Assembly (NCBI GenBank): GCA_964016885.1
Contig: OZ024743.1
Location: forward strand, 201,748,001-201,812,000
Origin: Eledone cirrhosa
Taxonomy: Eukaryota
Reading direction: 5' to 3'
Length of the DNA: 64,000 nt
Position 1 is the stretch's first letter; each line of letters opens with the position of its first letter. This document shows, piece by piece, positions 3,502 to 38,697 of this stretch. The notes under the pieces are model-generated. The model saw only the letters and a program-made list of their open reading frames with translations, did no database searches and was not told the DNA's origin. Both the position numbers and the translations under genes were made by a program.

Positions 3502-3840
3502 ATAATATTAATAAATGGAAACTATATTTATAAAATCCATATTTATTCTATTATATATATTTCAAGGGTACCAAAACTTTGGTACGCTCTCATCAGATAA
3601 AATACAAAGTTTGTTTAATAAATATTGACATATCCAGGAACGAGATCTTAACGGTTGAAGTTTTACCTGGATAGTAAAACTTGAACCGTTAAGATCTCGT
3701 TCCTGGTTATGTCAATAGTTATAAAACAAACTTTGTATTTTATCTGATGAGAGCGTACCAAAGTTTTGGAACCGTTGAAATATATATAATAGAATAAATA
3801 TGGTTTTATAAATATAGTTTCCATTTATTAATAATATTGA
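3499..3840. mobile_element. About 340-bp fold-back element with a hammerhead motif in each arm, embedded in (TA)n
   Basis: 3499-3666 is the near reverse complement of 3673-3840. HHR at 3736-3796 (+) and 3544-3604 (-). Confidence 0.85.
3736..3796 (+). ncRNA. Type I hammerhead ribozyme motif
   Basis: TATTTTAT-CTGATGA-gagcgtaccaaagttttggaaccgtt-GAAA-tatata-TA-ATAGAATA, with 8-bp helix I. Confidence 0.75.
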
Positions 3841-6393: not shown

Positions 6394-7042
6394 GATAGAT
6401 ATAGATAGATATATATATATACATTACATACAGAAATATTGAGGAATTGAAAGTAAACATGAAACAAATAACAAAAAGAAATACATTAATAAAAAATAAA
6501 ACCAAAAGACTCAAAAATAAACAAAATACAATTAAAATCACAAGAAATAATCTACAAGCCAAAATGGATGTCAATTGTGAAAGAAATGTATTTAATCTTT
6601 TTTCCTATTGAGTTTATGTTTATATTAAGTTGGAGCTGAATTCTAGAATACCTGAGATGTGTGTGGGTCACTTAGAAAAAAAAACATGATATACACACGC
6701 ACACATATATATGATCTAATTTATTCTTTGAGCCACGTGCCCACCTGCATATATTCCCACTGGATGTGTGAAGGCTTCTACATAACCCGGACACATTCTC
6801 CCAACTTGTAGAAAACTTATAATGAAACAATTGTTTGGAAAAGGAGATATATTTTAATTATGTCTCATATAAAATAATACTACTGGCCTTCCGCAAAATA
6901 CATATAGTTAGCACCCCAAACGTAAAATTGGGATTATACTAAGGTATATCCTAATATGTTTGTTGAGTGAGATGGAAGCCAGTCAGAGTATAGCTTAAAG
7001 CTTTCTCTGTTAATGTATTGTATCTATCTATCTATCTATCTA

Positions 7043-7134
<92 letters not shown>

Positions 7135-7340
7135 AAAGAATAGAGGTGTAACACACAAGTTATTATATATTGGTAAACGGAATAGAAAATGCTGACAAAT
7201 TGTTCACAGTTGAAAAATGGTTTAATTAGGAATAAAAGAGTATTAGTGATTGTATGGGTTAGTATTCAGTTGTGGTTTTAAGTTTTTAAGTTTTTACCGG
7301 TTGCGCATTTCTAAATGCTTTTCAAAAATAATTTTGAGAT

Positions 7341-7390
7341 AGAGTGTCCGTGCTGTTTGCTCTGATCAGAGCAAACAGCACGGACACTCT
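7341..7390. repeat. Perfect 50-bp palindrome
   Basis: AGAGTGTCCGTGCTGTTTGCTCTGA|TCAGAGCAAACAGCACGGACACTCT. Confidence 0.95.
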
Positions 7391-7704
7391 TATTCCTGAC
7401 GTCAGACGAATGAAATGGGTTTTCGTATTTCCCGCCCACCTTTTTCGTCGTTGTCGTCGTCGTCGTCGTGGAGAAATCTTGCACGCTTTGCACGTGATTT
7501 TTCTTTTCTGGCGTCGCTTGCGAAAGAGAAGGGAGGGAGAGAGACACATTTAGAGAAGGGAGAGAGAGAGACAATCTTCTCTCTGCTGTAGTGACGATTG
7601 AGGGAGAAGAAGACGGAATGAGTGGGAGTGACATATGAAAATTCTTTTTCGTAGCCATGTTTTTTTGTTTAAAATAAATATTGGGCACAAAAGCTACTGC
7701 AAAG

Positions 7705-10700
7705 AGACTCACAGCAGCAACACCACCAACACCATCACCACCCACACTAGCACCACCATCACCACCGGCGACAACCCCACCGCCAACAACAACAACACCT
7801 TCAACACCACCACCACAAGCACCAACATCGCAAACACAACAACAAAGCACACACACCCAGCAACAACGACAAGAAAATAGCAGAACAACACCCCACCCCA
7901 CCCCCAGAAAAACAAATGCACGGCAATAAATACACACAACAAGAAACTACTGACTTACATAATTGAACACACATACATTTCACAGCACGACTACATAATA
8001 CTAGCACCAATCAAAACGCCAACGAACATAAGACTGCTAAAAATAGCACAGAAACAATACGCAAACATTAAAACGAAATTCCCCAACGCAGTTGGTGATT
8101 TCAGAGACCTAGGAGGGACTCTCAACCGGAGAGTATATTCGGAAATACTCACAGAAGAGCCGACGACCAGCCGAAGGGACGATTCAACGGTCAATTCACC
8201 AGAAGATCAAGTGAAAAGGGATGGAAAAACCATCCTTCCTCTACGAAAAGTACGGTAAGTGGTCTTTCCCATCTTTTCCACTCTATTTTAAACATGACCT
8301 CACTCAGAATAGGCAGCATAAATGAGCGTGGCTTGGGGTCGTCATGGAAGCAGGGTCACCTGCTCAACGACCTCAGGTCACTAAACATAGATGTAGTGGC
8401 CATCAGCGAGACCAGAATCTCCGAAGCACGGGCCTTCGCACCGATCTTCGGCGGCTACGATGTGTACGCATCTCCCAGCCGTCCTGGATCGGGGGGAGGA
8501 GTTGCTGTGCTTTTTCGGATAGGTTTGGATCTCGCCATACGGGCCATCTTCCTGGACCCAGAGGGTAAGTTGGCGGTGCTAGACGTGACCAGCGGAGACA
8601 GGCAAGCTTTCAGGCTAGTGGCCGTCTATGCCCCGACAGGCGCAGGGCGGCCTGATTTCTTCCGGCGCCTGGAGACCTTTCTTGGAACGTCCCGCTCTTT
8701 AGTGTTAGTGGGCGACTGGAACGGGATCTTAGATGCACGCTGGGGCAGTGTGAGATTAGCGGATAGGGTGGGAAGGTGCAAGAGCCTCACCAACCTGCTC
8801 AGGCGTTTTGAACTGTCTGACAGCTACCGATTGGATTTCCCGAATGTGCCAATGTGGACTTGGACAAATCGCATAGGCTCATCCAGATCATATCTAGATA
8901 GAGTATTTTATAGGGAAATAGATAGGTTTAGCATAGGCTGTCCACAATTCAAGATTGTCAGTTACACGGACCACAAATTCGTGATCTGTGTGCTTGACTT
9001 AGATAGGCTTCATAGACGAGGACCCGGCTACTGGAAGCTAAACGCGTCCTTAACAGCGCGCAAGGCCTACAGAAACCGGATTAGCGAACTAGTTAAGCGG
9101 GCGTTGACGGGAGCCATCGTCAACAACAAGTGGTGATTTGCTCTGAAAAGAGCGATTAGAATAGAATCCATTAGGTTTAGTAAGGCTTTAGCAATAGAGA
9201 AAAATAGAGCAGAGGGAGAACTAGTTAGAAATTTAGACGAGGCGTTAGCAAAGGCATCGCGACCGACGTGCTTGCGGCGAAATTGGCCCTTGACCAATTC
9301 TTCAATGTAAAGCACGAAGGCTGCTTTGTCAGAGCTAGGGTGCGTGCTCTCAGACACGAGAGGACGAAAGCTGTTCAATGGGCCCGAGTGGCGGAGGTGC
9401 GTCGTGGCAACAAAGCCACAATCCGGTCTTTGGTGGACCTTGACGGGCGAATGCTACACGATCCCGGGAAAATGTGTGAAGCTTTTTAGCGACACTTCGC
9501 TCAGCTGTTCGGGGGCAGCGGCGGGCCGGGTTGAGGGATGGACTTTAGTGTCTACCACGACGGACTGCCGCGGCTCTCGGCCACTGAGGCGGAGAGTTGC
9601 GAAAAGCCGATAACAGCCGCTGAAGTACGGGAGGCAATGACTGGCTGCACAAGGGGTAAATCGCCTGGTTTGGATGGTCTGCCCTATGAACTTTACGTAC
9701 AGATGCCAGACTTGTTTGGAGGCCTCTTGGCGGACGTCTACTGCAACTGGCAACAGAACGGGAGAATTCCCAGCTCTGTGAGCCGAGGAGCGGTGGCGCT
9801 GCTGAGAAAGGAACCGAACAAGGGGGATAACATAGATAATTTTAGGCCCATAACTCTGCTAAACACAGAGTTCAAGATTTTGGACAAGGTGCTAGCAAAG
9901 AGGTTGGCGCTTGTCGTTGGTGGTCTGGTGGGAGAGGCGTAGACATGCGCCATTCTCGACAGATCCATCCACGAGAACCTCCACCTCATGCGATACATCG
10001 TAGAGAGGGTAGCTAGGGAACCTGGCACGGGTGGGTCTTTGATCAATTTAGATCAGTCGAAAGCTTTCGATAGGGTCGACCATCGTTACCTAACGGCAGT
10101 CCTGAGGGCGGCTGGCTTTGGGCCCGTCTTCAGAGGCTGGATCGCTGCCATGCACAGCGACATCTGCTCTGTGGTGAGAGTGAACGGGCACCTTTCAGAA
10201 CCGTTCAACATCATGCGCTCGGCCCGCCAAGGATGTCCCCTCTCGTCCCTCTTGTACGTATTGAGTCTTGAGCCATTACTGCACAAACTGGAGACGTTGA
10301 GGGGCGTCCCGCGCGAACTAGGATGCATATGCCAACGATGTCACCGTAGTGGTGACGAACGCCAAACACATCGAGGCGATCGGCACTACACTAAGAAAAT
10401 ACGAAGCGGTGACAGGAGCAATGATCAACCAGGAAAAGTCAGTGGGCCTGCAGCTCGGCACCTGGAGAGGCAGGTCCATGCCGTCCAACAGCGTCGTCGG
10501 ACGCTGGACGGACGGACCGGTTAAATTGTTAGGGGTCTGGTTCGGTCCGGACCTCCAGACGGACAAAAACTGGGACGAGGTGACGAGCAGGGTGGCTTCT
10601 CTCAGCCAGAAATGGGCGGAGAGGGAGCTATCCCTGAAAGGTCGAGCGGAGGTGGCTAACGCATACATCGCGTCTGTCATCTGCTACCGCCTGACCGTCG

Positions 10701-11943
10701 TACCCTGTCCTAAGCCTCGCCTGACTGCGCTGGAGCGTTTGCTCTTTCGTTTTTTGTGGAAGGGACGCGCTCCGATGGTCCGGCGGTCCATCTGTTGTCA
10801 ACACCCGCTACGTGGAGGGCTGGGCATGCCGTGGCTGATGATGCGCAGGCACGCGTTCAGGCTACGACATCTCCACCTCTTCCTCGACGGTGATCAGGTG
10901 TGGTCGCCGTTTGCTAGACACGTATTTCCCCAGCTCGTTTCCTTGACGGAGCTGCAGTCCTGGGTCAAGCTAAGACCAAGATGGAGCGCCTGGAGACTGG
11001 AATGTCTTCAGGCGTTCACAGCCCTCGACCATACAGGCAATGTGATCGGTGGAAACTCCACCTCGGCGTTCTATAGAGGATTAGTGGAGGGGAAGAGCGA
11101 CGACGTACTTGGGGAAACTCTAGGCGTCGACGAAAATCAACTAGCCAATCTCTTCGGAAGAACTTTCGGGCCGGGGCCTATGGACAACTTCCAGAAATCT
11201 CTGGCCTGGCAGTGTTACCGAGGAGCCTTGCCAGTTCAGGATAAACTCTACAGGCATGAAGGTGCCGTCAGCCGGGCATGCCCGAGATTCGCGCAGGGCG
11301 ACGAAACCATCCTGCACGCACTCGTCCAGTGTCCTAGCATTGCTGACTTGTGGATTTATGTCGAACACCTGCTGTCGCGTGTAGGACGGATCCGGCTATC
11401 ATCTGAGTCCATCGTGAGGATTGCCCCGCCCTCCTCCTTTAGCCGGGAAGGGCAGTAAGTTTTTATCTGTCTGGTGGCCATGTCGAAAGAGATAGTATGG
11501 TGGACACGTTTGAAAGGGCTGAAGACGAGCACTTACCTCTTCGGTGATGCCCTGATTGACTTTTTCAAATTTCATTTGAAAAGGAAAATCAGAGTAGAGA
11601 GGGAAGTGCTCTGTTCCCAGCATTTTGTTGAAAGATGGGTGAGAGAAGCAAGAATGGCCCGAGTGAATGGGCTTACTCTGAGTATATATCTGTAAATTAA
11701 AGGTGGAAAACTGGGAGAGGGCACTTGCCTTGGTGGTCAGGGTCACTGTGGCCTATTACTGGGCTTTCTCCACAAATGTCCCTCCGAAGTCTCCCCCCTA
11801 TTGGGGTATTTTTCATTGTTATTTTTTGTTACATCCTCTGTTTTTGTTTTTTACACGCAGAAATGCCCATTTGTTCCGCCCTGTATTGTCCTGCACTGTC
11901 CTTAATGTCTACTTTATGTAAACCCTTGTGGTTAATAAAGAAA
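7705..11943 (+). mobile_element. Tx1/L1-type non-LTR retrotransposon, 5'-truncated and inactivated
   Basis: ORF1 3' remnant (Thr/Pro/Gln-rich, open frame 7881-8258 ending LPLRKVR*), then ORF2, T-rich 3' UTR and AATAAA at about 11934. 5' boundary approximate. Confidence 0.85.
8294..11695 (+). pseudogene. ORF2: APE endonuclease + reverse transcriptase + C-terminal zinc-knuckle (zf-RVT-like), several stops and frameshifts
   Basis: SINERGL, AISET, VYAP, GDWN, SYLDR, TDHK (APE). KSPGLDG, FRPITLLN, DQSKAFDRV, RQGCPLS (RT). GGLG and CPR..DETILHALVQC at the C terminus. Confidence 0.92.
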
Positions 11944-12097: not shown

Positions 12098-12476
12098 GTA
12101 TTACTATTATTATTACTATGATTATTATTACTATATACATATATACATATATATATATATATATGCGTAGAAATATCCATTATCCCCAGCACACAACTGA
12201 TGAAGGAACATTTTTTCCCGTTCGTGCTTTGCTCTTATTTATAAGTACACCTTATCCAGCAACTACACAACCCCTGTTTCTTCTTATATATATATATATA
12301 TATATAACGGCGATGTATTAGTTATTAATTCTGGCAATATTAATACACAAATATGACCCTCCCCAAGTATAACAACCTATATATATATATATATATATAT
12401 GTATATAGTATTAATAATCATAGTAATAATAATAGTAATACTACTACTAATAATAATAATAATAATAATAATTATT

Positions 12477-13544
12477 AGGTACAGTGCGGGAATCCTGAGA
12501 TGGAATGTTGCTGAACAAAAAGAAATGGATAGGAAGACTAGGAAGCTATTGACTATCTACAACATGTTCCACAAGAGGAGTGATGTCGATAGACTCTACC
12601 TAAGGAGATCTGAGGGTGGAAGAGGTCTTATCAGCATAGAGGACTGTGTTCAGATGGAGAAAAACAACCTATACAAATACGTGACCTATAGTAAGGAGCC
12701 AATGCTCAGAGCTGTACTGAAGGAGGGGACAGTAGGCCAGGGGATACCCAAGGAGGAAATAACATCAAGGAGGAAGAGCAGCCTTAAGGGAAAATCCCTT
12801 CATAGTACCTTCTTTGAGAAAACTGAATTTAGAGATCCACAGACATGGAACTGGTTGAGAAGAGGAGACCTCAAAAAGGCTACAGAAGGAATGCTAATGG
12901 CTGCGCAGGAGCAGGCCCTCAAAACGAAGTGGTTGAAGCACCATATCTACAAGGAGGAGGCTAGCCCACTGTGCAGGATCTGTGGAGAGAGAGAGGAGAC
13001 TGTGGCTCACATTGTGTCCGAGTGTAAACACCTAGCCCAGACCCACTATAAGGGCTGGAGACACGATGTGATGGGCAGGGTGATCCACTGGCACCTATGC
13101 AAAGTAAACAATCTACCACATTCTGAGAAATGGTATGAGCATAGGCCAGAGGCGGTGATGGAGAACAGTCAGGTGAAGGTGCTGTGGGATTTTAGGATAC
13201 AGACGGACAAAAAACTGGAACACAATAGACCTGACCTGGTGGTTGTGGACAAAGAAAAAAGATCGTGCCTGATTGTGGATGTGGCCTGCCCGTTCGACAC
13301 GAGAGTGCAAGAGAAGGAGAGGGAGAAAATTAACCGATACCAGGACCTAAAGTGGGAGGTGAAAAGGATTTGGAACTGCCATGAAGTCAAAGTGATCCCG
13401 ATTGTCATAGGCGCACTGGGGACTATCTCCAAAGGTTTCCAGGGATGGTTAAAGAAAATCGGCCCCTTCACGCTTTTTGGAACGCTTCAAAAGGCATGCT
13501 TGCTTGGAACGGCAAGAACCCTCCGATACGTCCTGAATATCTGA
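12477..13544 (+). CDS. C-terminal part of R4/Dong ORF: RT thumb, CCHC zinc knuckle, restriction-like endonuclease
   Basis: RLYLRRSEGGRGL, CRICGEREETVAHIVSEC, RHD, RPDLVVVD...IVDVACPFD, KEREKINRY. Uninterrupted. The ORF-track start at 12399 is microsatellite-derived. Confidence 0.9.
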   Translation, partial: RYSAGILRWNVAEQKEMDRKTRKLLTIYNMFHKRSDVDRLYLRRSEGGRGLISIEDCVQMEKNNLYKYVTYSKEPMLRAVLKEGTVGQGIPKEEITSRRKSSLKGKSLHSTFFEKTEFRDPQTWNWLRRGDLKKATEGMLMAAQEQALKTKWLKHHIYKEEASPLCRICGEREETVAHIVSECKHLAQTHYKGWRHDVMGRVIHWHLCKVNNLPHSEKWYEHRPEAVMENSQVKVLWDFRIQTDKKLEHNRPDLVVVDKEKRSCLIVDVACPFDTRVQEKEREKINRYQDLKWEVKRIWNCHEVKVIPIVIGALGTISKGFQGWLKKIGPFTLFGTLQKACLLGTARTLRYVLNI

Positions 13545-13677: not shown

Positions 13678-14871
13678 TTTCTATATATATATATATAGTA
13701 ATAATAATAAATTTGAAGACTAAAATCCAAAGAGGGCTCGATAAGTATAAATATGTATCAAATATATAAGAACCGTAGAGCAAATATTTATTAAAATAAC
13801 AGATTAAAGTTTAAGCAAAGAATCGCTGCTTTCATCCTTAACGGGATCTTCTGAAGCTAACAAAGTCAATCTGTGAACGCAGAAATGAATATTTCAAAAA
13901 ACGTTGCAACCGGAGGAAAACAGGAAGACGATACTTTCGTTTGTGGAAACGTTCCCTGGCAAAGAACGGGAATAAACGAATATAATACGTCATTATTTGG
14001 AGCGGTGAAAAACAATTACACGCAAAGACAAAACGACGTTTATGGTATAAAAGAAGTCGTAGACTAATATTCTATTAGGTGGTTCATAATGACGTTCTTT
14101 GCAATGAACGGAAAAAACGAAGTGGTGCGGGAGAACAATTGCACGCAAAGACAAAACCACGTAAATGGTATAATTGAAGTCGGAGACTAAAATTCTAACT
14201 AGGAAACCGAATGATTCTTGGCTTCAGAGTTAAGTGTAAAGTACATAAAATACAGAGGTAATTGAAATTAAATAAATACATACACGCATCCATATACGTA
14301 CATACACAAGCATACGCGAAAACACTCGCCATAGGTATACAAATACACGCACGTACACAAAAAAACCCCAAACCCCCCCAAAACCTCACGCACATACAGA
14401 ACCCACGCAACGCCTGTACCCGCACGCATACGAATGTATACACCAAATACACATAAAAATATATATAAAAAAAAATATATATATATGTGTGTGTGTGAGC
14501 GTGTATACATATAATTAAATAAAGGTATATAAATAAATAAATACGTATATAACAAGCGCACACACATACCTACATGTAAATACACATATGTTCGGAGACG
14601 TACGTCAACCAAAACACAAAATACACATACACACACACCCTACTTTAATCTGTTATTTTAATAAATGAATATATATTTATATATATATTTATCAAAATAA
14701 CAGATTAAAGTTTAAGCAAAGAATCGCTGCTTTCACCCTTAACTGGATCTTCTGAAACTAACAAAGTCAATCTGTAAACGCAGAACTGGATATTTCAAAA
14801 ACGTTGCAACCGGAGGAAGACAGGAAGACGATACTTTGGTTCGTGGAAACGTTCGCTGGCTAAGAACGGGA

Positions 14872-15828
14872 ACGAAGTCCGATTTAGGTAGACTTAGTAA
14901 GACGATTCTTGATAGAATTATACCTGAAATTAGAAGTTTGGCCCCTCTTGCACTGTGGAACAATTCCTTCGCGGTGATTGATTGGTTCAACGGCATATGT
15001 AACAAGGAACATTGCCGTTTTATCCAATTCGACATCAACAATTACTACTCCTCCATCACTTTACCACTTTTCCTTAGAGCTATCAATTTCGCTAAAACAC
15101 TCACAGTGGTTAAGGATTTTGAAGTTGATGTCATCCTCAATGCCCGAAAGTCGGTGATTAATTTCGACGACTCTATTTGGATTAAAAAATCCAATAGTAC
15201 CCCATTCGACGTGAGTATGGTCGCCAGTGATTCTGCGGAGGTTTCTGATCTTATCGGCCTTTTCCTTCTTTTCTCTATCAAGGACGAATTCCCCAACACG
15301 GGCGGTGGTTTGTACCGTGACGATGGTCTTTTGACCATGACTAAGTGCGGACCTCGTACTTGCGGCAGGTTCAGAAAAGAACTCACAGCCTTCTTTAAAG
15401 GCTTCAACCTCTCTATACAGGTTGAGGCCAATCTCTCGGTCGTTAATTACCTCGACGTTACCCTCAACTTATTGAATGGGTTGTATTACCCGTGTAGAAA
15501 GCCGAATGATACGCTTAATTACATAAGTAAGCATTCCAACCGTCCTGACAGCATAACCAAGAACCTGGTAAGAAACGTTTCGTTGAGGCTTTCCCGTCTT
15601 TCCACCAACGAGCGTATTTTCAACGACCATTCCACTTATTACAATGAAGCTCTTGCTCGGAGTGGATTTGTCGATAAGGTAGCATATACAGAGTACGAAT
15701 ATAGACCGAGAAGAAATAGATCCCGTCGCATTTGTTGGTATAATCCACCATATAATATGGAAGTGGCCACACCATTAGCTAAGATCCTTCTTTCCCCTAT
15801 TACGAATGATTTTCCCCCTACAGACAAA
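14872..15828 (+). pseudogene. Penelope-like reverse transcriptase fragment
   Basis: KSDLGRLSKTIL, FIQFDINNYYSSI, FDVSMVASDSAEVSDLIG, LYRDDGL, NYLDVTLNL, ICWYNPPY. Homologous to 35533-37116. Confidence 0.88.
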
Positions 15829-15895
15829 TCCTGTCTTCCTCCGGTTGCAACGTTTTTTGAAATATCCAGTTCTGCGTTTACAGATTGACTTTGTT

Positions 15896-15946
15896 AGTTT
15901 CAGAAGATCCCGTTAAGGGTGAAAGCAGCGATTCTTTGCTTAAACT
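15896..15946 (+). ncRNA. Variant type I hammerhead motif (CAGAAGA core) in PLE pLTR
   Basis: AGTTT-CAGAAGA-tCCCgttaaGGGt-GAAA-GCAg...tTGC-TT-AAACT. All three helices form. Related copies at about 13808, 14709, 16292 (-) and 24173 (+). Confidence 0.6.
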
Positions 15947-16053
15947 TTAATCTGTTATTTTAATAAATATTTGCTCTACGGTTCTTATATATTTGATATA
16001 TATTTATCCTTATCGAGCCCTCTTTGGATTTTAGTCTTCAAATTTATTATTAT

Positions 16054-16107
<54 letters not shown>

Positions 16108-16230
16108 TAGCAGAATGGCCCGGCGCTGCTCGGGGTTTGCTCCAGGGTTCATATATATTTGATATATATTTATCCTTATCGAGCCTCGTGAAATAAATAC
16201 GTTTGTTTATATTTTGTTATTGTGTATGCA

Positions 16231-16280
<50 letters not shown>

Positions 16281-16420
16281 TAACAGATTAAAGTTTAAGC
16301 AAAGAATCGCTGCTTTCACCCTTAACGCGATCTTCTGAAACTAAAAAAATAAATCTGTGAAAGCAGAAGTAAATATTTCGAAAAACGTTACACTATATAT
16401 ATTTATATATATATATATAT

Positions 16421-18314
16421 GTGAATATAGACACAGAATATTCGAAAATATTCCGTATGTTTATAATAAACATTTTGAAGACCTAATCGCTATAGAATAG
16501 AATACGTCACGTATTACAATTAGATTCTCGATAAAAGCAAGGGAAGTAAGTCTACGCGTTTCATTCTTGTTAGAATTCATCAGGACTACATATCCAGTGC
16601 TTTTATCGAGAATGACACAGCTAGAGACTTATAGAATACTTAGCTGTGTACAGGAACTGGTTTGAAAGAGCGGTTGCCGGTCCGGCAGAAATTAGAAATT
16701 GGAATAAATGCTCTGAAATAGCGATATATATGTGAATATAGACACAGAATATTCGAAAATATTCCGTATGTTTATAATAAACATTTTGAAGACCTAATCG
16801 CTATAGAATAGAATACGTCACGTATTACAATTAGATTCTCGATAAAAGCAAGGGAAGTAAGTCTACGCGTTTCATTCTTGTTAGAATTCATCAGGACTAC
16901 ATATCCAGTGCTTTTATCGAGAATGACACAGCTAGAGACTTATAGAATACTTAGCTGTGTACAGGAACTGGTTTGAAAGAGCGGTTGCCGGTCCGGCAGA
17001 AATTAGAAATTGGAATAAATGCTCTGAAATAGCGATATATATGTGAATATAGACACAGAATATTCGAAAATATTCCGTATGTTTATAATAAACATTTTGA
17101 AGACCTAATCGCTATAGAATAGAATACGTCACGTATTACAATTAGATTCTCGATAAAAGCAAGGGAAGTAAGTCTACGCGTTTCATTCTTGTTAGAATTC
17201 ATCAGGACTACATATCCAGTGCTTTTATCGAGAATGACACAGCTAGAGACTTATAGAATACTTAGCTGTGTACAGGAACTGGTTTGAAAGAGCGGTTGCC
17301 GGTCCGGCAGAAATTAGAAATTGGAATAAATGCTCTGAAATAGCGATATATATGTGAATATAGACACAGAATATTCGAAAATATTCCGTATGTTTATAAT
17401 AAACATTTTGAAGACCTAATCGCTATAGAATAGAATACGTCACGTATTACAATTAGATTCTCGATAAAAGCAAGGGAAGTAAGTCTACGCGTTTCATTCT
17501 TGTTAGAATTCATCAGGACTACATATCCAGTGCTTTTATCGAGAATGACACAGCTAGAGACTTATAGAATACTTAGCTGTGTACAGGAACTGGTTTGAAA
17601 GAGCGGTTGCCGGTCCGGCAGAAATTAGAAATTGGAATAAATGCTCTGAAATAGCGATATATATGTGAATATAGACACAGAATATTCGAAAATATTCCGT
17701 ATGTTTATAATAAACATTTTGAAGACCTAATCGCTATAGAATAGAATACGTCACGTATTACAATTAGATTCTCGATAAAAGCAAGGGAAGTAAGTCTACG
17801 CGTTTCATTCTTGTTAGAATTCATCAGGACTACATATCCAGTGCTTTTATCGAGAATGACACAGCTAGAGACTTATAGAATACTTAGCTGTGTACAGGAA
17901 CTGGTTTGAAAGAGCGGTTGCCGGTCCGGCAGAAATTAGAAATTGGAATAAATGCTCTGAAATAGCGATATATATGTGAATATAGACACAGAATATTCGA
18001 AAATATTCCGTATGTTTATAATAAACATTTTGAAGACCTAATCGCTATAGAATAGAATACGTCACGTATTACAATTAGATTCTCGATAAAAGCAAGGGAA
18101 GTAAGTCTACGCGTTTCATTCTTGTTAGAATTCATCAGGACTACATATCCAGTGCTTTTATCGAGAATGACACAGCTAGAGACTTATAGAATACTTAGCT
18201 GTGTACAGGAACTGGTTTGAAAGAGCGGTTGCCGGTCCGGCAGAAATTAGAAATTGGAATAAATGCTCTGAAATAGCGATATATATGTGAATATAGACAC
18301 AGAATATTCGAAAA
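16421..18314 (-). repeat. 311-bp tandem repeat, left arm (6 full copies + partial); each unit has a minus-strand hammerhead ribozyme; retrozyme-like
   Basis: Unit starts GTGAATATAGACACAG at 16421, 16732, 17043, 17354, 17665, 17976, 18287 (period 311). TCATCAG (reverse complement of CTGATGA) at 16577+311n. No ORF of 60 aa or more. Confidence 0.95.
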
Positions 18315-18327
18315 TGTACACAGAATA

Positions 18328-20151
18328 TTCCTGTACACAGCTAAGTATTCTATAAGTCTCTAGCTGTGTCATTCTCGATAAAAGCACTGGATATGTAGTC
18401 CTGATGAATTCTAACAAGAATGAAACGCGTAGACTTACTTCCCTTGCTTTTATCGAGAATCTAATTGTAATACGTGACGTATTCTATTCTATAGCGATTA
18501 GGTCTTCAAAATGTTTATTATAAACATACGGAATATTTTCGAATATTCTGTGTCTATATTCACATATATATCGCTATTTCAGAGCATTTATTCCAATTTC
18601 TAATTTCTGCCGGACCGGCAACCGCTCTTTCAAACCAGTTCCTGTACACAGCTAAGTATTCTATAAGTCTCTAGCTGTGTCATTCTCGATAAAAGCACTG
18701 GATATGTAGTCCTGATGAATTCTAACAAGAATGAAACGCGTAGACTTACTTCCCTTGCTTTTATCGAGAATCTAATTGTAATACGTGACGTATTCTATTC
18801 TATAGCGATTAGGTCTTCAAAATGTTTATTATAAACATACGGAATATTTTCGAATATTCTGTGTCTATATTCACATATATATCGCTATTTCAGAGCATTT
18901 ATTCCAATTTCTAATTTCTGCCGGACCGGCAACCGCTCTTTCAAACCAGTTCCTGTACACAGCTAAGTATTCTATAAGTCTCTAGCTGTGTCATTCTCGA
19001 TAAAAGCACTGGATATGTAGTCCTGATGAATTCTAACAAGAATGAAACGCGTAGACTTACTTCCCTTGCTTTTATCGAGAATCTAATTGTAATACGTGAC
19101 GTATTCTATTCTATAGCGATTAGGTCTTCAAAATGTTTATTATAAACATACGGAATATTTTCGAATATTCTGTGTCTATATTCACATATATATCGCTATT
19201 TCAGAGCATTTATTCCAATTTCTAATTTCTGCCGGACCGGCAACCGCTCCTTCAAACCAGTTCCTGTACACAGCTAAGTATTCTATAAGTCTCTAGCTGT
19301 GTCATTCTCGATAAAAGCACTGGATATGTAGTCCTGATGAATTCTAACAAGAATGAAACGCGTAGACTTACTTCCCTTGCTTTTATCGAGAATCTAATTG
19401 TAATACGTGACGTATTCTATTCTATAGCGATTAGGTCTTCAAAATGTTTATTATAAACATACGGAATATTTTCGAATATTCTGTGTCTATATTCACATAT
19501 ATATCGCTATTTCAGAGCATTTATTCCAATTTCTAATTTCTGCCGGACCGGCAACCGCTCTTTCAAACCAGTTCCTGTACACAGCTAAGTATTCTATAAG
19601 TCTCTAGCTGTGTCATTCTCGATAAAAGCACTGGATATGTAGTCCTGATGAATTCTAACAAGAATGAAACGCGTAGACTTACTTCCCTTGCTTTTATCGA
19701 GAATCTAATTGTAATACGTGACGTATTCTATTCTATAGCGATTAGGTCTTCAAAATGTTTATTATAAACATACGGAATATTTTCGAATATTCTGTGTCTA
19801 TATTCACATATATATCGCTATTTCAGAGCATTTATTCCAATTTCTAATTTCTGCCGGACCGGCAACCGCTCTTTCAAACCAGTTCCTGTACACAGCTAAG
19901 TATTCTATAAGTCTCTAGCTGTGTCATTCTCGATAAAAGCACTGGATATGTAGTCCTGATGAATTCTAACAAGAATGAAACGCGTAGACTTACTTCCCTT
20001 GCTTTTATCGAGAATCTAATTGTAATACGTGACGTATTCTATTCTATAGCGATTAGGTCTTCAAAATGTTTATTATAAACATACGGAATATTTTCGAATA
20101 TTCTGTGTCTATATTCACATATATATCGCTATTTCAGAGCATTTATTCCAA
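18328..20151 (+). repeat. 311-bp tandem repeat, right arm (about 5.9 copies), inverted relative to left arm; each unit has a plus-strand hammerhead ribozyme
   Basis: Reverse complement of the left-arm unit. CTGATGA at 18401, 18712, 19023, 19334, 19645, 19956. One substitution noticed (T>C at 19250). Confidence 0.95.
18395..18438 (+). ncRNA. Minimal type I hammerhead ribozyme (representative of 12 copies)
   Basis: gtAGTC-CTGATGA-ATTC taacaa GAAT-GAAA-CGCG-TA-GACT tac. Helix I AGTC/GACT, helix II ATTC/GAAT, palindromic helix III (ACGCGT), GUA cleavage triplet. Confidence 0.9.
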
Positions 20152-20286
20152 TATATATATATATATATACACGCACTATACATACATATATAGATACACA
20201 GACAGCGTCATAATGACGTAATGCAGACAGCCAGACATACAGACAGATATTATAAGGGCGCGACGTTATATCTATGTATCTATCTA

Positions 20287-23627: not shown

Positions 23628-23701
<74 letters not shown>

Positions 23702-23714
23702 TATATATATATAT

Positions 23715-28757
<5,043 letters not shown>

Positions 28758-31605: not shown

Positions 31606-31922
31606 TATTATATATATATATATATATTATTATTATGTAATAAACAACATAAGGCAATTATTCCATTTACCAGTGGTTTCTTAAAAGCAAAAGGTTTTGC
31701 TTTCAATCCTCAGAATGAAAAATCCTGGTTTGTTTATTGAATATGGATTCTAAAAACAAAAATGCAATCTATATGAAAGTGAGGCTGGAAAAGGGAGAAG
31801 GAAAGGAAAAATAAAATAAAATAAAACTACACATGCAAACACACACAAAAAAAACATAAAAGCATACTTACACACACACACATATATACACATATAATTT
31901 GCACGCACACATATATACACAT

Positions 31923-31979
<57 letters not shown>

Positions 31980-32036
31980 GAGCGTACACCTACACACACA
32001 TACACATATATGCACACATATACACATACATATATT

Positions 32037-32084
<48 letters not shown>

Positions 32085-32113
32085 CATATATATACACATG
32101 TACATATCCATAC

Positions 32114-32152
<39 letters not shown>

Positions 32153-32610
32153 CATACATATACACATATACAGACATATACATACACACACACACACACA
32201 CACGCACACATGTGTGTGTACAAGCCTACACATACACACACACATATATATACACACACATATACATACATTCACAAAAACATACAACGTACATACATAC
32301 ACATACATGAATGCACTCCACTACATATTAACACACGCAAATAAATATAAGAAAAAATATATATAAATAATATTAACAAATATTTGACAGCGATACATGC
32401 CCCAGCTAACAGGACAGACACGCGTGGTAAGTAATACACACATAAGCACATATACATACGTTCGAAATAGTAAACACATACACACACTCTCACACATAAA
32501 TATACATATGCAAATACATAAACACGTACATACACATACATACGCAAACACGTACACGTATACAATATAAACACACACATGTATATGTAATTATATACAC
32601 ACACACAAAC

Positions 32611-32679
<69 letters not shown>

Positions 32680-32932
32680 CAAAAATATAAAAATATAAAC
32701 GCAAACACACATATACATACATAGCTAAACAATTATACACATGCAAATACGTATATATCAAAAGAACGCACAACCAAATACAAACACACACATATATATA
32801 CACACACACACACCCCCACACACAAACCCACACATACATAAAAATAAATAAAAACACACGCAACATATACATACATACACATACATATACATATATACAT
32901 ACATACATATACACATACACATATACACACAC

Positions 32933-32980
<48 letters not shown>

Positions 32981-34345
32981 ACGTACACATACACACATGC
33001 ATACACATACACACACACATATACATGTGTGTATGTGTAAAGCTCAGTATTAGATAAGACAAATGAACCTTACATAAACGTATATATAGTAGTAAAGTAA
33101 TAAAGCCATACAAGGCAATTAATCCATTCACCAGAGGTTTCTTAAAAGCAAAAAAAGTTTCCTTCAATCTTCAGAATGAAAAAAAGCCCTGGTTTATCCA
33201 CATATACATACATATACACACACAAATATACAAATATATACACACATACAGACACGCACACACACACATATATATATATATATACACATACATATATATA
33301 CACATATATATATATATATATATATATACAGACATATATACATACACATATATACACATACATACATATACATACATACATACACATATATATACATACA
33401 CAAACATATACGTACACATATACATATATACACACACAAATACATACACATACACATAGGTATGTGAAGGGCAAAACAAAAAGAATATATGGGGGAGGGC
33501 TAAGAGGAGGTAAAAATATAAGGGGAGGTCAGGGAGAAAAAATTTTTTAAAAATACAAGAGTACAGAAGGTAGAAGCAGCAAAATAAAAGCCGTAGCAAA
33601 AGTAAAGAGCAGAGAAGGAGTTCAAGGCGGTTGATTTATCGTAGGAGTGTCAATCCAGTTACAGATCAGATGCGATTTCAGATGAGGACAGCATCTGAAG
33701 ATCTCAGTCTTAGAGTTAAGGCAAGCGGAAGTGTCTCTCAAGTTTAGCAAAATCCTATACTTTTCTGTGGTACACAAAGAACAATTCTTTGTGCCCCTTT
33801 GGTACTCCCTCGAATGGTCTAATGTAGACCAATCAATAGAGTACGGGATATTACTATCCTTGAGATCCCATACCTTACTTGCGAGGGCCGTTGATGTTCG
33901 TTTATCTGAGTGTTTAAAAGAAGCGACATGTGAGTAAAATCTGGTTTTAAACCTGTCCTGGGTCATACCGACTCGTCATATCGCTCGCTTCTGGCTGTCT
34001 GGTTGTTGATAGCTGGCGTTATTTTAGCCTCATAAACGACAGATTTTGTGTTACATTTACCCTGCAATGGGCATTCATCCGGCTTCCTGCAACTGCATCC
34101 TGGATTTATCCTCGTACGGTTTGAACTGGTGATTTTGGATTTCATGGATGGACAACAAGAGTAGCTGATCTTAACTACATTCCTATTAAAAATCTTATAA
34201 TATCTATGAATAGGAGGAAAATGTTTGTCTAATAGTTCAAGGAATTTCCTTCCTACATTAGTTTTGACATTTAGAGAGAAGGGGGGTGTGAACCAAATAA
34301 TCTTCCTTTTCCTGTTATTATGGTTAGTTTTAGTGTATATATATG

Positions 34346-34388
<43 letters not shown>

Positions 34389-34453
34389 ATGTATGAATAT
34401 ATGTATGTGTATATGTGTGCATATATGTGTATGTGTGTGTAGGTGTACGCTCT

Positions 34454-34511
<58 letters not shown>

Positions 34512-34713
34512 ATGTGTATATATGTGTGCGTGCAAATTATATGTGTATATATGTGTGTGTGTGTAAGTATGCTTTTATGTTTTTTTTGTGTGTGTTTGCA
34601 TGTGTAGTTTTATTTTATTTTATTTTTCCTTTCCTTCTCCCTTTTCCAGCCTCACTTTCATATAGATTGCATTTTTGTTTTTAGAATCCATATTCAATAA
34701 ACAAACCAGGATT

Positions 34714-34773
34714 TTTCATTCTGAGGATTGAAAGCAAAACCTTTTGCTTTTAAGAAACCACTGGTAAATGGAA
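34714..34773 (+). ncRNA. Type I hammerhead ribozyme in PLE pLTR (copies at 39009-39068 + and 31661-31720 -)
   Basis: TTTCATT-CTGAGGA-TTGAAAGCAAAA cc TTTTGCTTTTAA-GAAA-CC act GG-TA-AATGGAA. Confidence 0.9.
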
Positions 34774-34992
34774 TAATTGCCTTATGTTGTTTATTACATA
34801 ATAATAATAATTAAGCTCTGTTGCTTACATAGAGCACTCTTTTTTCCTGGACTTTTCCGATGGAATTACTTCATTTATACAGCTCCAACCGGGATTGATC
34901 GCAGCATATTCGATATTACATATACGATTGGCACTTTCCAGCCCGATTAGTTGAGCACTCTACAGTTTTCAGGAATTTAACCAACATACACC

Positions 34993-37116
34993 ATGGACCT
35001 TTATGATTTGGATTATTCTATCAAAAACATACCCACTCCTTCCAATACAACATACACCAAAATCCTCATTGATAAAATCGAGCAAGTCGTTAAAAGAATG
35101 AGATGGAAGGCAATGGTTTACGATGGACTATTCAGTGCTGATACTAAAGATAATTTTGACATTAAATCCCGTAAATATCCACCTAGAATTAAAGACATGG
35201 CCAACTTCGAATTAGACCTCGTTAATCTAATTAGTGATATCAAATTCGTAAGTACAATAATAATTTTCAAACTAAACTTTCTCACGATATCTCTAATTTT
35301 AGAAATTCTACAAACACTTTCGTTCTTTCTGATAAAACCAAAAACCTCTTTGAAGTTAATAGTAATTTGTATAACCAACTTTTAACTAATAGTATTACCA
35401 ATAAATATCAATTAACTAATAATAATAGCTACAATACTATCAATAAAGAAGCTAAAGAACTAGCTAGTTCTTTACAAATAGATAACCGGATTAGCTAAGC
35501 GTAAAGCATATATTACCCTTAAAGACCATAAATTGGACTTTACTAATCGACCTAGTTGTAGACTGATTAACCCGGCTAAATCCGAGGTTGGCCTTGCTAG
35601 TAAGAAAATCTTAAGAAAAATAATTCTCCAAATTAGAACTAACACTGACCTTTCACAGTGGCTAAATACTTCCTCTGTTATTTCTTGGTTCAATAATATA
35701 CAAGGTAAAAATAAGTGTAGATTTACGCAATTTGATATTGTCGATTTTTACCCTTCTATTACCGTTTCCTTATTAACTAAAGCCTTAGATTTTGCAAGAC
35801 CCTTCATTAATATCTCCAAATTAGAAGAGGACATTATCTTTCATGCCAGAAAAACTTTACTTTTTACTAATGATAATATTTGGGTTAAAAAGTCAAACCC
35901 TGAAAACTCTTTCGATGTTGCAATGGGTTCTTATGACAGTGCGGATGTGTGCGACTTAGTAGGATTATTCCTTCTCCACACACTCCAAGAGAAATTTCCG
36001 TCCCATAATATCGGTTTATACCGTGATGACGGATTAGCTGTTTCTCATACCACCAATGGCCATAATCTTGATAAATTCCGTAAAGATTTAATTAGTACCT
36101 TTGCTAATCTTAACCTTAAAATTACTATAGATACGAACCTTACTAATGCTAACTTTCTTGATATTAATCTTGATCTACTTACTGCCTCTTTTAAACCCTA
36201 TCATAAACCTAATGAAAATCTTAGGTATATACACAAAGAGTCTTGCCATCCCCCTATAGTTTTTAATAATCTTATTCCTAACATTAGCCGTAGGATTTCT
36301 ACTTTATCTTCGTCTATAGACATTTTTAATAAAGCCGCCCCTTATTATAATAAAGCCCTTAAGAACAGCGGTTTTACAGAAAATATTTCTTATTTACCTA
36401 CTCCTCCCCCTAAAACTAACCATAATAACAGGAAAAGGAAGATTATTTGGTTCACACCCCCCTTCTCTCTAAATGTCAAAACTAATGTAGGAAGGAAATT
36501 CCTTGAACTATTAGACAAACATTTTCCTCCTATTCATAGATATTATAAGATTTTTAATAGGAATGTAGTTAAGATCAGCTACTCTTGTTGTCCATCCATG
36601 AAATCCAAAATCACCAGTTCAAACCGTACGAGGATAAATCCAGGATGCAGTTGCAGGAAGCCGGATGAATGCCCATTGCAGGGTAAATGTAACAAAAAAT
36701 CTGTCGTTTATGAGGCTAAAATAACGCCAGTTATCAACAACCAGACAGCCAGAAGCGAGCGATATGTCGGTATGACCCAGGACAGGTTTAAAACCAGATT
36801 TTACTCACATGTCGCTTCTTTTAAACACTCAGATAAACGAACATCAACGGCCCTCGCAAGTAAGGTATGGGATCTCAAGGATAGTAATATCCCGTACTCT
36901 ATTGATTGGTCTATATTAGACCATTCGAGGGAGTACCAAAGGGGCAGAAAGAATTGTTCTTTGTGTACCACAGAAAAGTATAGGATTTTGCTAAACTTGA
37001 GAGACACTGCCGCTTGCCTTAACTCTAAGACTGAGATCTTCAGATGCTGTCCTCATCTGAAATCGCATCTGATCTGTAACTGGATTGACACTCCTACGAT
37101 AAATCAACCGCCTTGA
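34993..37116 (+). CDS. PLE RT + GIY-YIG endonuclease; frameshifts near 35255 and 35485; 35533-37116 open
   Basis: YSIKNIP..KRMRWKA; RLINPAKS, FDIVDFYPSI, MGSYDSADVCDLVG, LYRDDGL, IIWFTPPF, CSC..CPLQGKC..VVYEA..YVGMT..FKTR..H, CSLCTTEK, LNSKTE. Confidence 0.92.
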
Positions 37117-37560
37117 ACTCCTTCTCTGCTCTTTACTTTTGCTACGGCTTTTATTTTGCTGCTTCTACCTTCTGTACTCTTGTATTTTTAAAAATTTTTT
37201 TCTCCCTGACCTCCCCTTATATTTTTACCTCCTCTTAGCCCTCCCCCATATATTCTTTTTGTTTTGCCCTTCACATACCTATGTGTATGTGTATGTATTT
37301 GTGTGTGTATATATGTATATGTGTACGTATATGTTTGTGTATGTATATATATGTGTATGTATGTATGTATATGTATGTATGTATGTGTATATATGTGTAT
37401 GTATATATGTCTGTATATATATATATATATATATATATGTGTATATATATGTATGTGTATATATATATATATATGTGTGTGTGTGCGTGTCTGTATGTGT
37501 GTATATATTTGTATATTTGTGTGTGTATATGTATGTATATGTGGATAAACCAGGGCTTTT

Positions 37561-37619
37561 TTTCATTCTGAAGATTGAAGGAAACTTTTTTTGCTTTTAA
37601 GAAACCTCTGGTGAATGGA
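37561..37619 (+). ncRNA. Second, diverged pLTR hammerhead (copy at 33123-33181 -)
   Basis: TTTCATT-CTGAAGA-stem II-GAAA-CC tct GG-TG-AATGGA. The GUG triplet violates the NUH rule. Confidence 0.75.
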
Positions 37620-37770
37620 TTAATTGCCTTGTATGGCTTTATTACTTTACTACTATATATACGTTTATGTAAGGTTCATTTGTCTTATCTAATACTGAGC
37701 TTTACACATACACACATGTATATGTGTGTGTGTATGTGTATGCATGTGTGTATGTGTACGTGTATGTGTG

Positions 37771-37801
<31 letters not shown>

Positions 37802-38059
37802 GTGTGTGTATATGTGTATGTGTATATGTATGTATGTATATATGTATATGTATGTGTATGTATGTATATGTTGCGTGTGTTTTTATTTATTTTTATGTAT
37901 GTGTGGGTTTGTGTGTGGGGGTGTGTGTGTGTGTATATATATGTGTGTGTGTTTGTATTTGGTTGTGCGTTCTTTTGATATATACGTATTTGCATGTGTA
38001 TAATTGTTTAGCTATGTATGTATATGTGTGTTTGCGTTTATATTTTTATATTTTTGTAT

Positions 38060-38121
<62 letters not shown>

Positions 38122-38580: not shown

Positions 38581-38612
<32 letters not shown>

Positions 38613-38646
38613 TATATGTATGGATACGTACATGTGTATATATATG

Positions 38647-38697
<51 letters not shown>

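What the first reader, a model, noticed from the sequence alone, without database searches (positions are those of the whole stretch)
16421..20151. Back-to-back concatemer of a 311-nt hammerhead-ribozyme repeat: candidate retrozyme/circRNA system
Seen: 6 apparently identical 311-bp units, then about 5.9 units in the opposite orientation (one SNP noticed, 19250), non-coding, with (TA)n on both sides. Each unit has a minimal type I HHR (AGTC-CTGATGA-ATTC..GAAT-GAAA-CGCG-TA-GACT). Established: non-LTR retrozymes in animals are tandem 150-400 bp repeats with type I HHRs that self-cleave to monomers, circularise, and are thought to be mobilised by PLEs; palindromic helix III allows dimeric HHR folding. 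Inference: this is a very young integration of a rolling-circle cDNA from a 311-nt circRNA, with a PLE-style inverted 5' half. I do not know of this family or this 6+6 divergent layout being described, but cannot search.
Basis: partly seen in the sequence, partly recalled or inferred. Interest (0 to 1): 0.95.

Follow-up and report, generated by a model that had tools for sequence, protein, structure and literature searches.

The report
Back-to-back hammerhead RNA-circle retroposon
This is one copy of a young, non-coding mobile element, present at over a thousand sites in this animal genome, that looks like a small self-cleaving RNA circle copied into DNA in both directions at once, which gives a rare genomic record of how Penelope-type retrotransposons insert.

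Summary
Confirmed: 6.1 units on the minus strand and 5.9 on the plus strand of a 311-nt unit, each with a type I hammerhead, inserted in (TA)n. It is not unique. Junction patterns suggest about 1,400 insertions, and 55 of 59 chromosome-1 copies examined are back-to-back. All 55 two-armed loci with both ends in view (window included) have one end at unit 131-140 and the other at 164-171. That is the one-sided 30-40 nt tail of Penelope-like elements (PLEs), matching the two RT start sites shown in vitro (PMC11167929). Both arms share one haplotype in 42 of 44 loci against 15% between loci, and private variants run through every unit. Best reading: a non-LTR retrozyme; a PLE enzyme cuts both target strands and primes both on one circular RNA. 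Template-level variants are A>G-rich (9 of 20 against 5 of 67; post hoc), hinting at RNA editing written into DNA. Cleavage, circles and expression are untested, and no PLE partner was found by sequence. The class and the PLE layout are known; their union, the one-site-per-end rule and the single-template evidence were not found in six literature searches.

The parts
16394..16420 (.). left (TA)n target tract; the last 8 nt are shared with the element end (microhomology)
   Evidence: sequence; junction print
16413..18315 (-). left arm, 6.12 identical units; outer end at the short start site (unit 131-140), inner end at unit 104 (unit position 1 = window 18432)
16546..16589 (-). outermost hammerhead of the left arm (five more at 311-nt steps); predicted cleavage after 16553
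   Evidence: core positions; canonical hammerhead numbering (recalled)
18316..18327 (.). 12-nt central junction insert, explicable as two short templated pieces (unit 212-220 and the left-arm end) joined by microhomologies
   Evidence: read from the sequence, interpretation inferred
18328..20152 (+). right arm, 5.87 units; inner end at unit 208, outer end at the long start site (unit 166)
18395..18438 (+). type I hammerhead: stem I, CUGAUGA core (18401-18407), 5-bp stem II, GAAA, self-complementary 6-nt helix III (18425-18430), cleavage after A18431; five more at 311-nt steps
   Evidence: helix III intermolecular duplex -9.5 kcal/mol; two-sided changes against the sister family in stems I and II
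18370..18461 (+). long extension of stem I that closes the hammerhead
   Evidence: fold z -4.1; two-sided changes against the sister family
18432..18742 (+). one cleavage-to-cleavage monomer, the predicted 311-nt circular RNA
   Evidence: circularity inferred
18511..18602 (+). two hairpins followed by the short and long start sites (unit 80-171); among the best-conserved parts against the sister family, probable recognition element for the PLE enzyme
   Evidence: role inferred
19250..19250 (+). single difference T>C (unit 197) in one unit
20118..20152 (+). 35-nt 'tail' present at this end only (26 nt if the TA microhomology at the short site is counted as element)
   Evidence: the same rule at all 55 two-armed loci with both ends in view
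20153..20169 (.). right (TA)n target tract

Best explanation
A young non-autonomous, non-LTR retrozyme mobilised in trans by an endonuclease-bearing Penelope-like element. Proposed cycle: (1) read-through transcription of an array gives sense multimers [inferred]. (2) The hammerheads, probably as dimers through the palindromic helix III, cut them to 310-311-nt monomers that a host ligase circularises [established for other retrozymes, inferred here]. (3) A PLE RT-endonuclease, possibly a dimer, binds one circle and nicks both strands of a (TA)n tract. One DNA end primes at the short site (unit 131-140) and the other at the long site about 35 nt downstream (164-171) [end positions shown; enzyme inferred]. 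(4) Both cDNAs run round the same circle a random number of times [shared haplotype and roughly exponential lengths shown; circle inferred]. (5) The two free cDNA ends are joined at random unit positions by microhomology or short templated patches [junctions shown]. The product is the back-to-back array with a tail on one side. Confidence is about 0.9 that it is a PLE-mobilised retrozyme and about 0.7 for the single-circle, two-primer mechanism.
For: Dispersed family: 716 forward long-end/TA junctions, control 0, and 65 distinct ones in the first 130 Mb of C1, so about 1,400-1,500 insertions. Layout: 12 of 15 loci chosen by unit similarity and 55 of 59 chosen by long end are back-to-back. End rule: one short and one long end in 13 of 13 (window included; chosen without regard to ends) and in 55 of 55 (window included). 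There are 0 long-long pairs among 65 long ends and no true short-short pair among 78 short ends (the one candidate is two neighbouring elements, L058 and L059). The purified PLE PAc cuts and extends both strands at AT-rich DNA and starts RT at two internal sites that bound the tail (PMC11167929). One template: 42 of 44 loci have the same haplotype in both arms, 286 of 1,892 cross-locus pairs do, and the best of 10,000 permutations gave 16. 13 variants seen in at most 2 loci are fixed in every unit of both arms, in 9 loci. Repeated copying rather than drift: 66 single-unit, 9 low-frequency, 1 intermediate and 44 fixed variants. Arm lengths fit an exponential (KS p 0.16 and 0.62), reach 45 units and are not correlated (rho 0.20, p 0.15). 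Inner ends are not at the cleavage site (1 of 112 within 5 nt, 3.6 expected) and their offsets are uniform (p 0.23). RNA structure: all locus-wide variants inside the hammerhead fall at position 7, loop II, the first stem II pair, or keep stem I; 10 of 52 predicted pairs change on both sides against the sister family. Coding PLEs in the same genome show the same geometry, including the Hydra-type element at window 31624-39176 and Neptune-like families.
Against: Nothing here shows cleavage, circles or expression. No coding PLE sharing sequence with the unit was found among 30 Hydra-type loci and 46 GIY-YIG loci; all relatives followed up were non-coding. In vitro, PAc did not need hammerhead cleavage and used unprocessed RNA, and it showed no difference in start site between strands, whereas these loci show strictly one of each. 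Three single-unit variants occur once in each arm (L059, L073, L074; about 0.015 expected by chance) and L094 changes haplotype part-way through one arm, so some exchange between arms or templates happens. The whole-unit test that locus-wide variants spare base pairs more than minor ones was not significant (9 of 21 against 43 of 65 disruptive, p 0.074). The A-versus-B covariation is essentially one comparison of two lineages. Nine low-frequency multi-unit variants, seven of them within one long arm, suggest some later local duplication.
Confidence: 0.7

Rival explanations
1. Same PLE twin priming, but the template is a long linear, uncleaved read-through transcript of an existing array, not a circle.
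For: Unprocessed RNA was the dominant substrate for PAc in vitro and hammerhead mutants inserted normally. A source array that is itself homogeneous would also give identical arms.
Against: Variants private to one or two loci fill every unit of both arms (13 cases), so a monomer must have been multiplied at some recent step. Minor variants are rarely shared between loci (3 of 79 distinct ones recur, one an apparent end artefact). Arms reach 45 units. These points do not exclude it locus by locus.
Confidence: 0.12
2. One primed cDNA folds back or self-primes, and the inverted arm is a DNA-templated copy of the first arm. This is a variant of the self-priming idea for head-to-head PLE repeats in PMC3846280.
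For: It explains identical haplotypes. Three single-unit variants are mirrored in both arms, far above chance.
Against: Either arm can be the longer (long-end arm longer in 32 of 55), whereas a copy cannot exceed its template. Inner-end offsets are uniform, with 5 of 56 within 15 nt against 5.6 expected. Two of the three mirrored variants are not in mirror register. L094 (2 of 6 against 7 of 7) fits neither direction of copying.
Confidence: 0.1
3. Short PLE-type inverted insertions, or insertions from two different templates, later grew and were homogenised by unequal crossing over and arm-to-arm gene conversion, i.e. a dispersed minisatellite under concerted evolution.
For: L094 looks like a conversion tract spreading from the centre. 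There are mirrored variants and a few 2-3-unit variants in the longest arms. Local amplification is the model favoured for vertebrate retrozyme arrays in bioRxiv 2026.07.22.740005. The older sister family has mostly short arms.
Against: Only 1 variant lies between 25% and 99% frequency, against 66 singles and 44 fixed. Only 3 of 82 minor events are mirrored, too few exchanges to homogenise 42 of 44 loci, including arms of 1 against 13 and 3 against 19 units.
Confidence: 0.06
4. Assembly or library artefact (fold-back reads).
For: The arms are near-perfect inverted repeats.
Against: The flanks are different on the two sides. The same two end sites recur at about 1,400 loci, with 18 haplotypes among 44 loci. 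Contigs of public run X1 show loose ends into (TA)n at both end sites, 18571 and 18602 (X1 may not be independent of the assembly).
Confidence: 0.01

Closest known systems
Metazoan non-LTR retrozymes (Cervera and de la Pena 2020, PMC7229834; review PMC7761336; Li et al. bioRxiv 2026.07.22.740005)
   Same: Low-GC tandem units of 150-450 nt, one type I hammerhead per unit, non-coding, highly self-paired, up to dozens of units, co-existing with PLEs; a circRNA-templated tandem cDNA is their proposed route.
   Different: In the parts I read they are described as head-to-tail repeats. 'Inverted', 'orientation' and 'microsatellite' do not occur in the 2020 main text, and the review says the repeats show no conserved motif pointing to the mobilising element. 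Here there are fixed start sites, a one-sided tail, (TA)n targeting and a back-to-back layout at most loci. Supplements of these papers were not seen and might show such layouts.
EN+ Penelope-like elements: Neptune, Hydra, Naiad, Penelope/Poseidon (Craig et al. bioRxiv 2021.04.23.441226; Arkhipova 2013 PMC3846280)
   Same: Inverted 5'-truncated copy, tandem copies, a 30-40 bp tail on one end, (TA)n targeting and a hammerhead upstream of the ends.
   Different: No ORF; arms are many-unit concatemers of a 310-nt monomer; no sequence likeness to the PLE ends sampled here.
PAc Poseidon in vitro system (Frangieh et al. 2024, PMC11167929)
   Same: Two internal RT start sites downstream of the hammerhead that bound the tail; both target strands cut and extended; AT-rich target; predicted dimer.
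   Different: In vitro no strand preference for either site was seen and no circle was used. These loci indicate one site per end and one template for both.
LINE-1 twin priming (recalled, not looked up in detail)
   Same: Both target strands prime on one RNA and give a 5'-to-5' inversion joined by microhomology.
   Different: In L1 the second primer anneals at variable upstream sites of a linear RNA. Here both sites are fixed, about 35 nt apart, and both products are multi-unit.

Membership tests
non-LTR retrozyme | tandem units of 150-450 nt with GC below 50% | tested here: met
   311 nt, about 34-35% GC
non-LTR retrozyme | type I hammerhead motif in every unit | tested here: met
   12 of 12 cores intact with stems I-III; Rfam HH9 only 17.8 bits, under gathering; two-sided changes against the sister family
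non-LTR retrozyme | non-coding, no LTR-type organisation | tested here: met
   longest stop-free frame 59 aa; the element consists of unit sequence only; PBS/PPT were not searched for separately
non-LTR retrozyme | highly self-paired monomer | tested here: met
   z -5.5; circular fold -70.8 kcal/mol, hammerhead-constrained fold within 0.4 kcal/mol
non-LTR retrozyme | dispersed as a retroelement in a genome that holds PLEs | tested here: met
   PLE ORFs with open frames of 714 aa and 844-1,096 aa
non-LTR retrozyme | self-cleavage of the transcript | not testable with these tools
   needs in vitro transcription; only 1 of 9 predicted Xenopus dimers cleaved in Li et al., so prediction is no guarantee
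non-LTR retrozyme | expressed as linear and circular monomer RNA | tested here: inconclusive
   no RNA holder listed; six runs of unrecorded kind hold it
non-LTR retrozyme | target-site duplication longer than 4 bp when present | tested here: inconclusive
   both ends lie in (TA)n, so a duplication cannot be read
autonomous Penelope-like element | RT plus GIY-YIG ORF | tested here: not met
   no ORF in the window element; the 59 C1 elements mapped consist of unit sequence apart from short junction inserts and one 272-nt insert
autonomous Penelope-like element | tandem/inverted insertion with a 30-40 nt tail on one end | tested here: met
   55 of 55 two-armed loci with both ends in view; 13 of 13 in the set chosen by unit similarity
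autonomous Penelope-like element | AT-rich or microsatellite target | tested here: met
   all outer ends of the 16 loci printed abut TA-rich repeats
derivative of a known PLE pLTR | sequence homology to the pLTR of a coding PLE in the same genome | tested here: inconclusive
   none among 30 Hydra-type and 46 GIY-YIG loci, flanks of 1.3-1.5 kb only, out of 10,596 GIY-YIG candidates
classical satellite DNA | long head-to-tail arrays at few loci, homogenised by drift | tested here: not met
   about 1,400 dispersed loci, median 2.7 kb, fixed ends, bimodal variant spectrum

The most novel reading that the evidence does not exclude
A PLE enzyme dimer holds one circular RNA and both cut DNA strands, starts one strand at each of two fixed sites and runs two rolling-circle reverse transcriptions on the same circle. 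The circle population evolves at the RNA stage, largely by A-to-I editing, and each edited molecule is archived in the germ-line genome as a homogeneous palindrome. The roughly 1,400 loci would then be a natural single-molecule record of PLE transposition and of RNA editing becoming heritable DNA change. The A>G excess is 9 of 20 template-level against 5 of 67 minor substitutions (p 0.0003; 6 of 16, p 0.005, without polarised sites); sense A>G 9 against T>C 2 (p 0.03); 8 of the 9 sites lie in predicted helices. This test was thought of after seeing the variants, and wobble tolerance or RT bias could give the same pattern.
Probability: 0.35. Interest if true: 0.85.

Novelty: new variant of a known kind. 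Interest (0 to 1): 0.68.

Why it matters
Two questions are stated as open in the papers read: which element mobilises animal retrozymes and whether it copies a circle (PMC7229834, PMC7761336), and how PLEs form their inverted structures with a one-sided tail (Craig et al.; PMC11167929). This family links them. It carries the PLE-specific tail on a non-coding hammerhead repeat, and because each insertion holds many copies of a variable 310-nt unit, every locus is its own barcode. The barcodes say: one template, two primers, one start site each. That gives sharp predictions for an existing in vitro PLE system and a small natural RNA substrate. It also means about 4-5 Mb of young perfect palindromes (about 1,400 x 3.25 kb) that would form long double-stranded RNA on read-through, and it hints that RNA editing can be written back into the genome.

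Tried and rejected
Rfam at gathering score: no hammerhead. Expression: no RNA holder listed. Four runs of unrecorded kind were laid. X4, X5 and X6 each give one 340-nt contig that closes on itself as a 310-nt unit, which a tandem DNA array would give as well; X1 is very deep and diverse with TA junctions and is probably DNA. I use none of this as evidence on RNA. The depth dip near the cleavage site in X1 coincides with the 1-nt indel and was rejected as a signal. Partner hunt: PF26215 is not in the library. The Hydra-type PLE of the window (30 loci) has a different hammerhead and no likeness to the unit. The hit in GIY-YIG locus L137 (78% over 97 nt, E 7e-15) first looked like the parent pLTR but is a sister retrozyme nested in that PLE's TA end. 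16 long-ORF GIY-YIG 3' regions gave nothing. A pattern for other continuations after the GC hairpin gave 33 matches that look like point variants of families A and B (not fetched). Two weaker relatives from an nhmmer scan of 0.94 Mb were followed: L089/L232 is a roughly 330-nt non-coding relative and L141 belongs to a family with about 316-nt spacing. Two apparent right arms starting at the cleavage site (L069, L073) were BLAST splits at the indel; L073's 'different haplotype' comes from that mis-trim and is really a mirrored minor variant. The structure-selection test over the whole unit was not significant. A coding remnant or rolling-circle translation was rejected. No exact match to a 29-nt unit motif in metagenome or viral contigs. 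A first impression that the flanks are Helitron-like (recalled) was not tested. Earlier findings of the scan: none. Lunse et al. 2017 on dimeric PLE hammerheads is not held; only its title was seen in a reference list.
Full report
Observation. The finding is in the sequence as described. The left arm runs 16413-18315 on the minus strand (6.12 identical 311-nt units). A 12-nt insert follows, and the right arm runs 18328-20152 on the plus strand (5.87 units, one T>C at 19250). I number the unit from window 18432, the base after the predicted cleavage site. Each arm has six hammerhead cores. The monomer folds far better than shuffles (z -5.5), and as a circle the hammerhead-constrained fold costs only 0.4 kcal/mol. 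Helix III has a 2-nt loop as a monomer but is self-complementary, giving a -9.5 kcal/mol intermolecular duplex. That fits dimeric cleavage as described for amphibian retrozymes and PLE motifs (PMC7229834, passages; PMC7761336, passages). Rfam support is weak: HH9, 17.8 bits, gathering 52. The genome G000 is a 3.0-Gb animal assembly. Its repeat landscape gave me the impression of a cephalopod; that is recalled and untested.

A family, not a locus. The unit matched 407 times in 39 of 148 candidate regions scored. Of 15 loci fetched from that list, 12 were back-to-back and 3 single-armed. Outer ends fell at two places only, unit 131-140 (short) and 164-171 (long), and all 13 two-armed loci including the window had one of each. 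Patterns for these ends joined to TA gave 716 forward matches for the long end and 622 for the short end, with 0 for the reversed controls; reverse counts are inflated by overlapping matches. The first 130 Mb of C1 hold 65 distinct long ends. Both figures give about 1,400-1,500 insertions, a lower bound. I fetched 60 of those 65 (one only in part and left out; five not fetched). Of 59 elements, 55 are two-armed and 4 show one arm by BLAST. The 54 with both ends in view, plus the window, all have exactly one long end. No long-long pair exists among the 65 long ends, and the single short-short candidate among 78 short ends is two neighbouring elements. Mean size is 3.25 kb, range 0.23-15 kb. Minor variants occur at 82 per 171,796 aligned bases, so the family is very young; an age in years would need a mutation rate I do not have.

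The PLE signature. Craig et al. (bioRxiv 2021.04.23.441226; passages and section 11) describe PLE insertions as partial tandems with an inverted 5'-truncated copy, a 30-40 bp tail on only one end and a (TA)n bias, and call the mechanism undefined. Frangieh et al. (PMC11167929; parts 1-2 of 4) show that a purified Poseidon protein cuts and extends both strands at AT-rich DNA, is predicted to be a dimer, and starts reverse transcription at two internal sites that bound the tail, a signature they call unique to PLEs. The two end sites here are about 35 nt apart and lie 131-171 nt downstream of the hammerhead cut. A coding Hydra-type PLE in this same window (31624-39176; ORF 35482-37116 with the CxCX5C linker; many intact 714-aa copies) has the same geometry: inverted arm with a short end, direct arm with a roughly 70-nt tail, TA on both sides. 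Neptune-like families with open frames of up to 938 aa also show short and long ends in TA. I take the tail rule as strong evidence for PLE mobilisation. The actual partner was not found; only 76 PLE loci with short flanks were examined.

One template for both arms. Per-arm variants were called by alignment to the unit, with end regions 126-141 and 160-171 masked and arms over 6.5 kb cut to their outer 6.5 kb. In 44 of 56 loci both arms cover the whole unit; these carry 18 haplotypes. The arms agree in 42 of 44, against 286 of 1,892 cross-locus pairs, and the best of 10,000 permutations gave 16. One exception (L073) is a trimming error of mine and is really a mirrored minor variant; the other (L094) has A277G in the inner 2 of 6 left units and 7 of 7 right units. 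With the four commonest variants removed, the spectrum is 66 single-unit, 9 low-frequency, 1 intermediate and 44 fixed, 13 of the fixed ones being seen in at most two loci. Arm lengths fit an exponential and are not correlated; long-end arms are somewhat longer (means 6.3 against 3.9 units, p 0.02), but either can be the longer. Inner ends are spread round the unit (Rayleigh p 0.07), their offsets are uniform (p 0.23) and they are not enriched at the cleavage site. Most junctions show 0-4 nt of overlap, some have short templated inserts, and one holds a 272-nt foreign piece. This is what two cDNAs, each started at an outer end on one endless template and joined wherever they stopped, would leave.

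Results against. Three single-unit variants appear once in each arm (0.015 expected) and L094 is mixed, so some arm-to-arm exchange or template switching occurs. It is too rare (3 of 82 minor events) to explain 42 of 44. In vitro PAc did not need cleavage, used unprocessed RNA and showed no strand preference of start site, so a linear multimer template stays possible. The whole-unit test for structure selection was not significant (p 0.074). Li et al. (bioRxiv 2026.07.22.740005; parts 1-3 of 5) favour local amplification for vertebrate arrays and saw cleavage in only 1 of 9 dimers.

Relatives. An older sister family B (1,518 motif matches including a few family A variants; 2,618 candidates, best full-length copies 88-96% like the query) is collinear with the unit. 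It has its own hammerhead and the same two end sites, and mostly short arms. Ten of 52 predicted pairs change on both sides between A and B, including stems I and II, though this is in effect one lineage comparison. Further non-coding relatives exist, so circles of this kind have invaded the genome repeatedly.

An RNA-stage imprint. Substitutions fixed across a locus are A>G in 9 of 20 cases against 5 of 67 minor ones (p 0.0003; 6 of 16, p 0.005, without sites I had to polarise), and A>G outnumbers T>C 9 to 2 on the sense strand (p 0.03). Eight of nine sites lie in predicted helices, one opposite a C. This fits A-to-I editing of the template, but the test is post hoc, the numbers are small, and wobble tolerance or polymerase bias are alternatives.

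Comparison and novelty. It works like a non-LTR retrozyme and meets every sequence-level feature that could be read (a target-site duplication cannot be read in TA); cleavage and circular RNA could not be tested. It is not an autonomous PLE. Six literature searches found no description of this family, of back-to-back retrozyme arrays with a one-sided tail, or of haplotype evidence for a single template. The 2020 retrozyme paper (section 13 and passages) proposes circRNA-templated tandem cDNA and names PLEs as a candidate only. Arkhipova 2013 (PMC3846280, passages) explained head-to-head PLE repeats by self-priming, which the random junctions here do not favour. Subscription journals, Repbase entries and all supplements were not seen and may hold such a description.

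Verdict. Real, young and abundant; a new variant of a known kind. The class is known and a PLE link was already proposed, which caps surprise. But the family turns two open mechanistic questions into direct tests. Interest 0.68.

Noticed in passing
window 31624-39176: Young coding Hydra-type PLE (ORF 35482-37116, CxCX5C linker, own hammerhead at 31713 minus, 34721 and 39016 plus) with the same inverted, one-sided-tail layout in (TA)n; many intact 714-aa copies in the genome.
   Followed up: partly
window 14743-15888 and 25416-28564: Degenerate PLE coding fragments: one resembles the Hydra-type ORF just left of the array, the other (minus strand) has a weak RVT_1 match; a clade label of Nematis-like is recalled, not tested.
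   Followed up: no
window 3596-3744 and 41955: Further hammerhead-like motifs of other families, one as a divergent pair; similar ones in L031, L041, L043.
   Followed up: no
window 15830-16392 (also 13682-13925, 14642-14825, 23629-24441): A small TA-associated repeat in nested inverted copies forms the left flank and recurs beside many other loci, so TA tracts act as sinks for several such elements.
   Followed up: partly
window 23181, 29008, 41453, 46760, 48722, 49393, 49901, 50884, 51512: Dispersed tRNA-like copies, several Gly-like and all on the plus strand; probably tRNA-derived SINE heads or pseudogenes.
   Followed up: no
window 8099-11458, 12357-13544, 53152-54236: Broken non-LTR retrotransposon (endonuclease/RT) frames.
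   Followed up: no
L137:2440-2870 and L166-L215: Older sister retrozyme family B, collinear with the unit, with the same end sites, short arms and a non-palindromic helix III.
   Followed up: yes
L039:2153-3900 and 6400-9100; L167:190-1100: Two other hammerhead tandem families of about 468-480 nt with palindromic helix III, one nearly identical between copies; family A is inserted between copies of the first.
   Followed up: partly
L060:1398-1669: 272-nt GC-rich foreign sequence captured at the central junction; no Rfam match and no other copy among held loci.
   Followed up: partly
L034:3608-5472, L042:3787-5642: Single-armed arrays that begin at unit 133 directly after TA; L034 is exactly 6.0 units, suggesting the cDNA end can anneal to the target through the unit's own TA stretch.
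   Followed up: no
L094: Haplotype changes part-way along the left arm (inner 2 of 6 units share the right arm's A277G): template switch or conversion from the centre.
   Followed up: partly
L216-L231, L136-L165: Several Neptune-like PLE families with distinct 3' ends and hammerhead-like motifs, some with open frames of 844-1,096 aa; candidates for the mobilising partner.
   Followed up: partly
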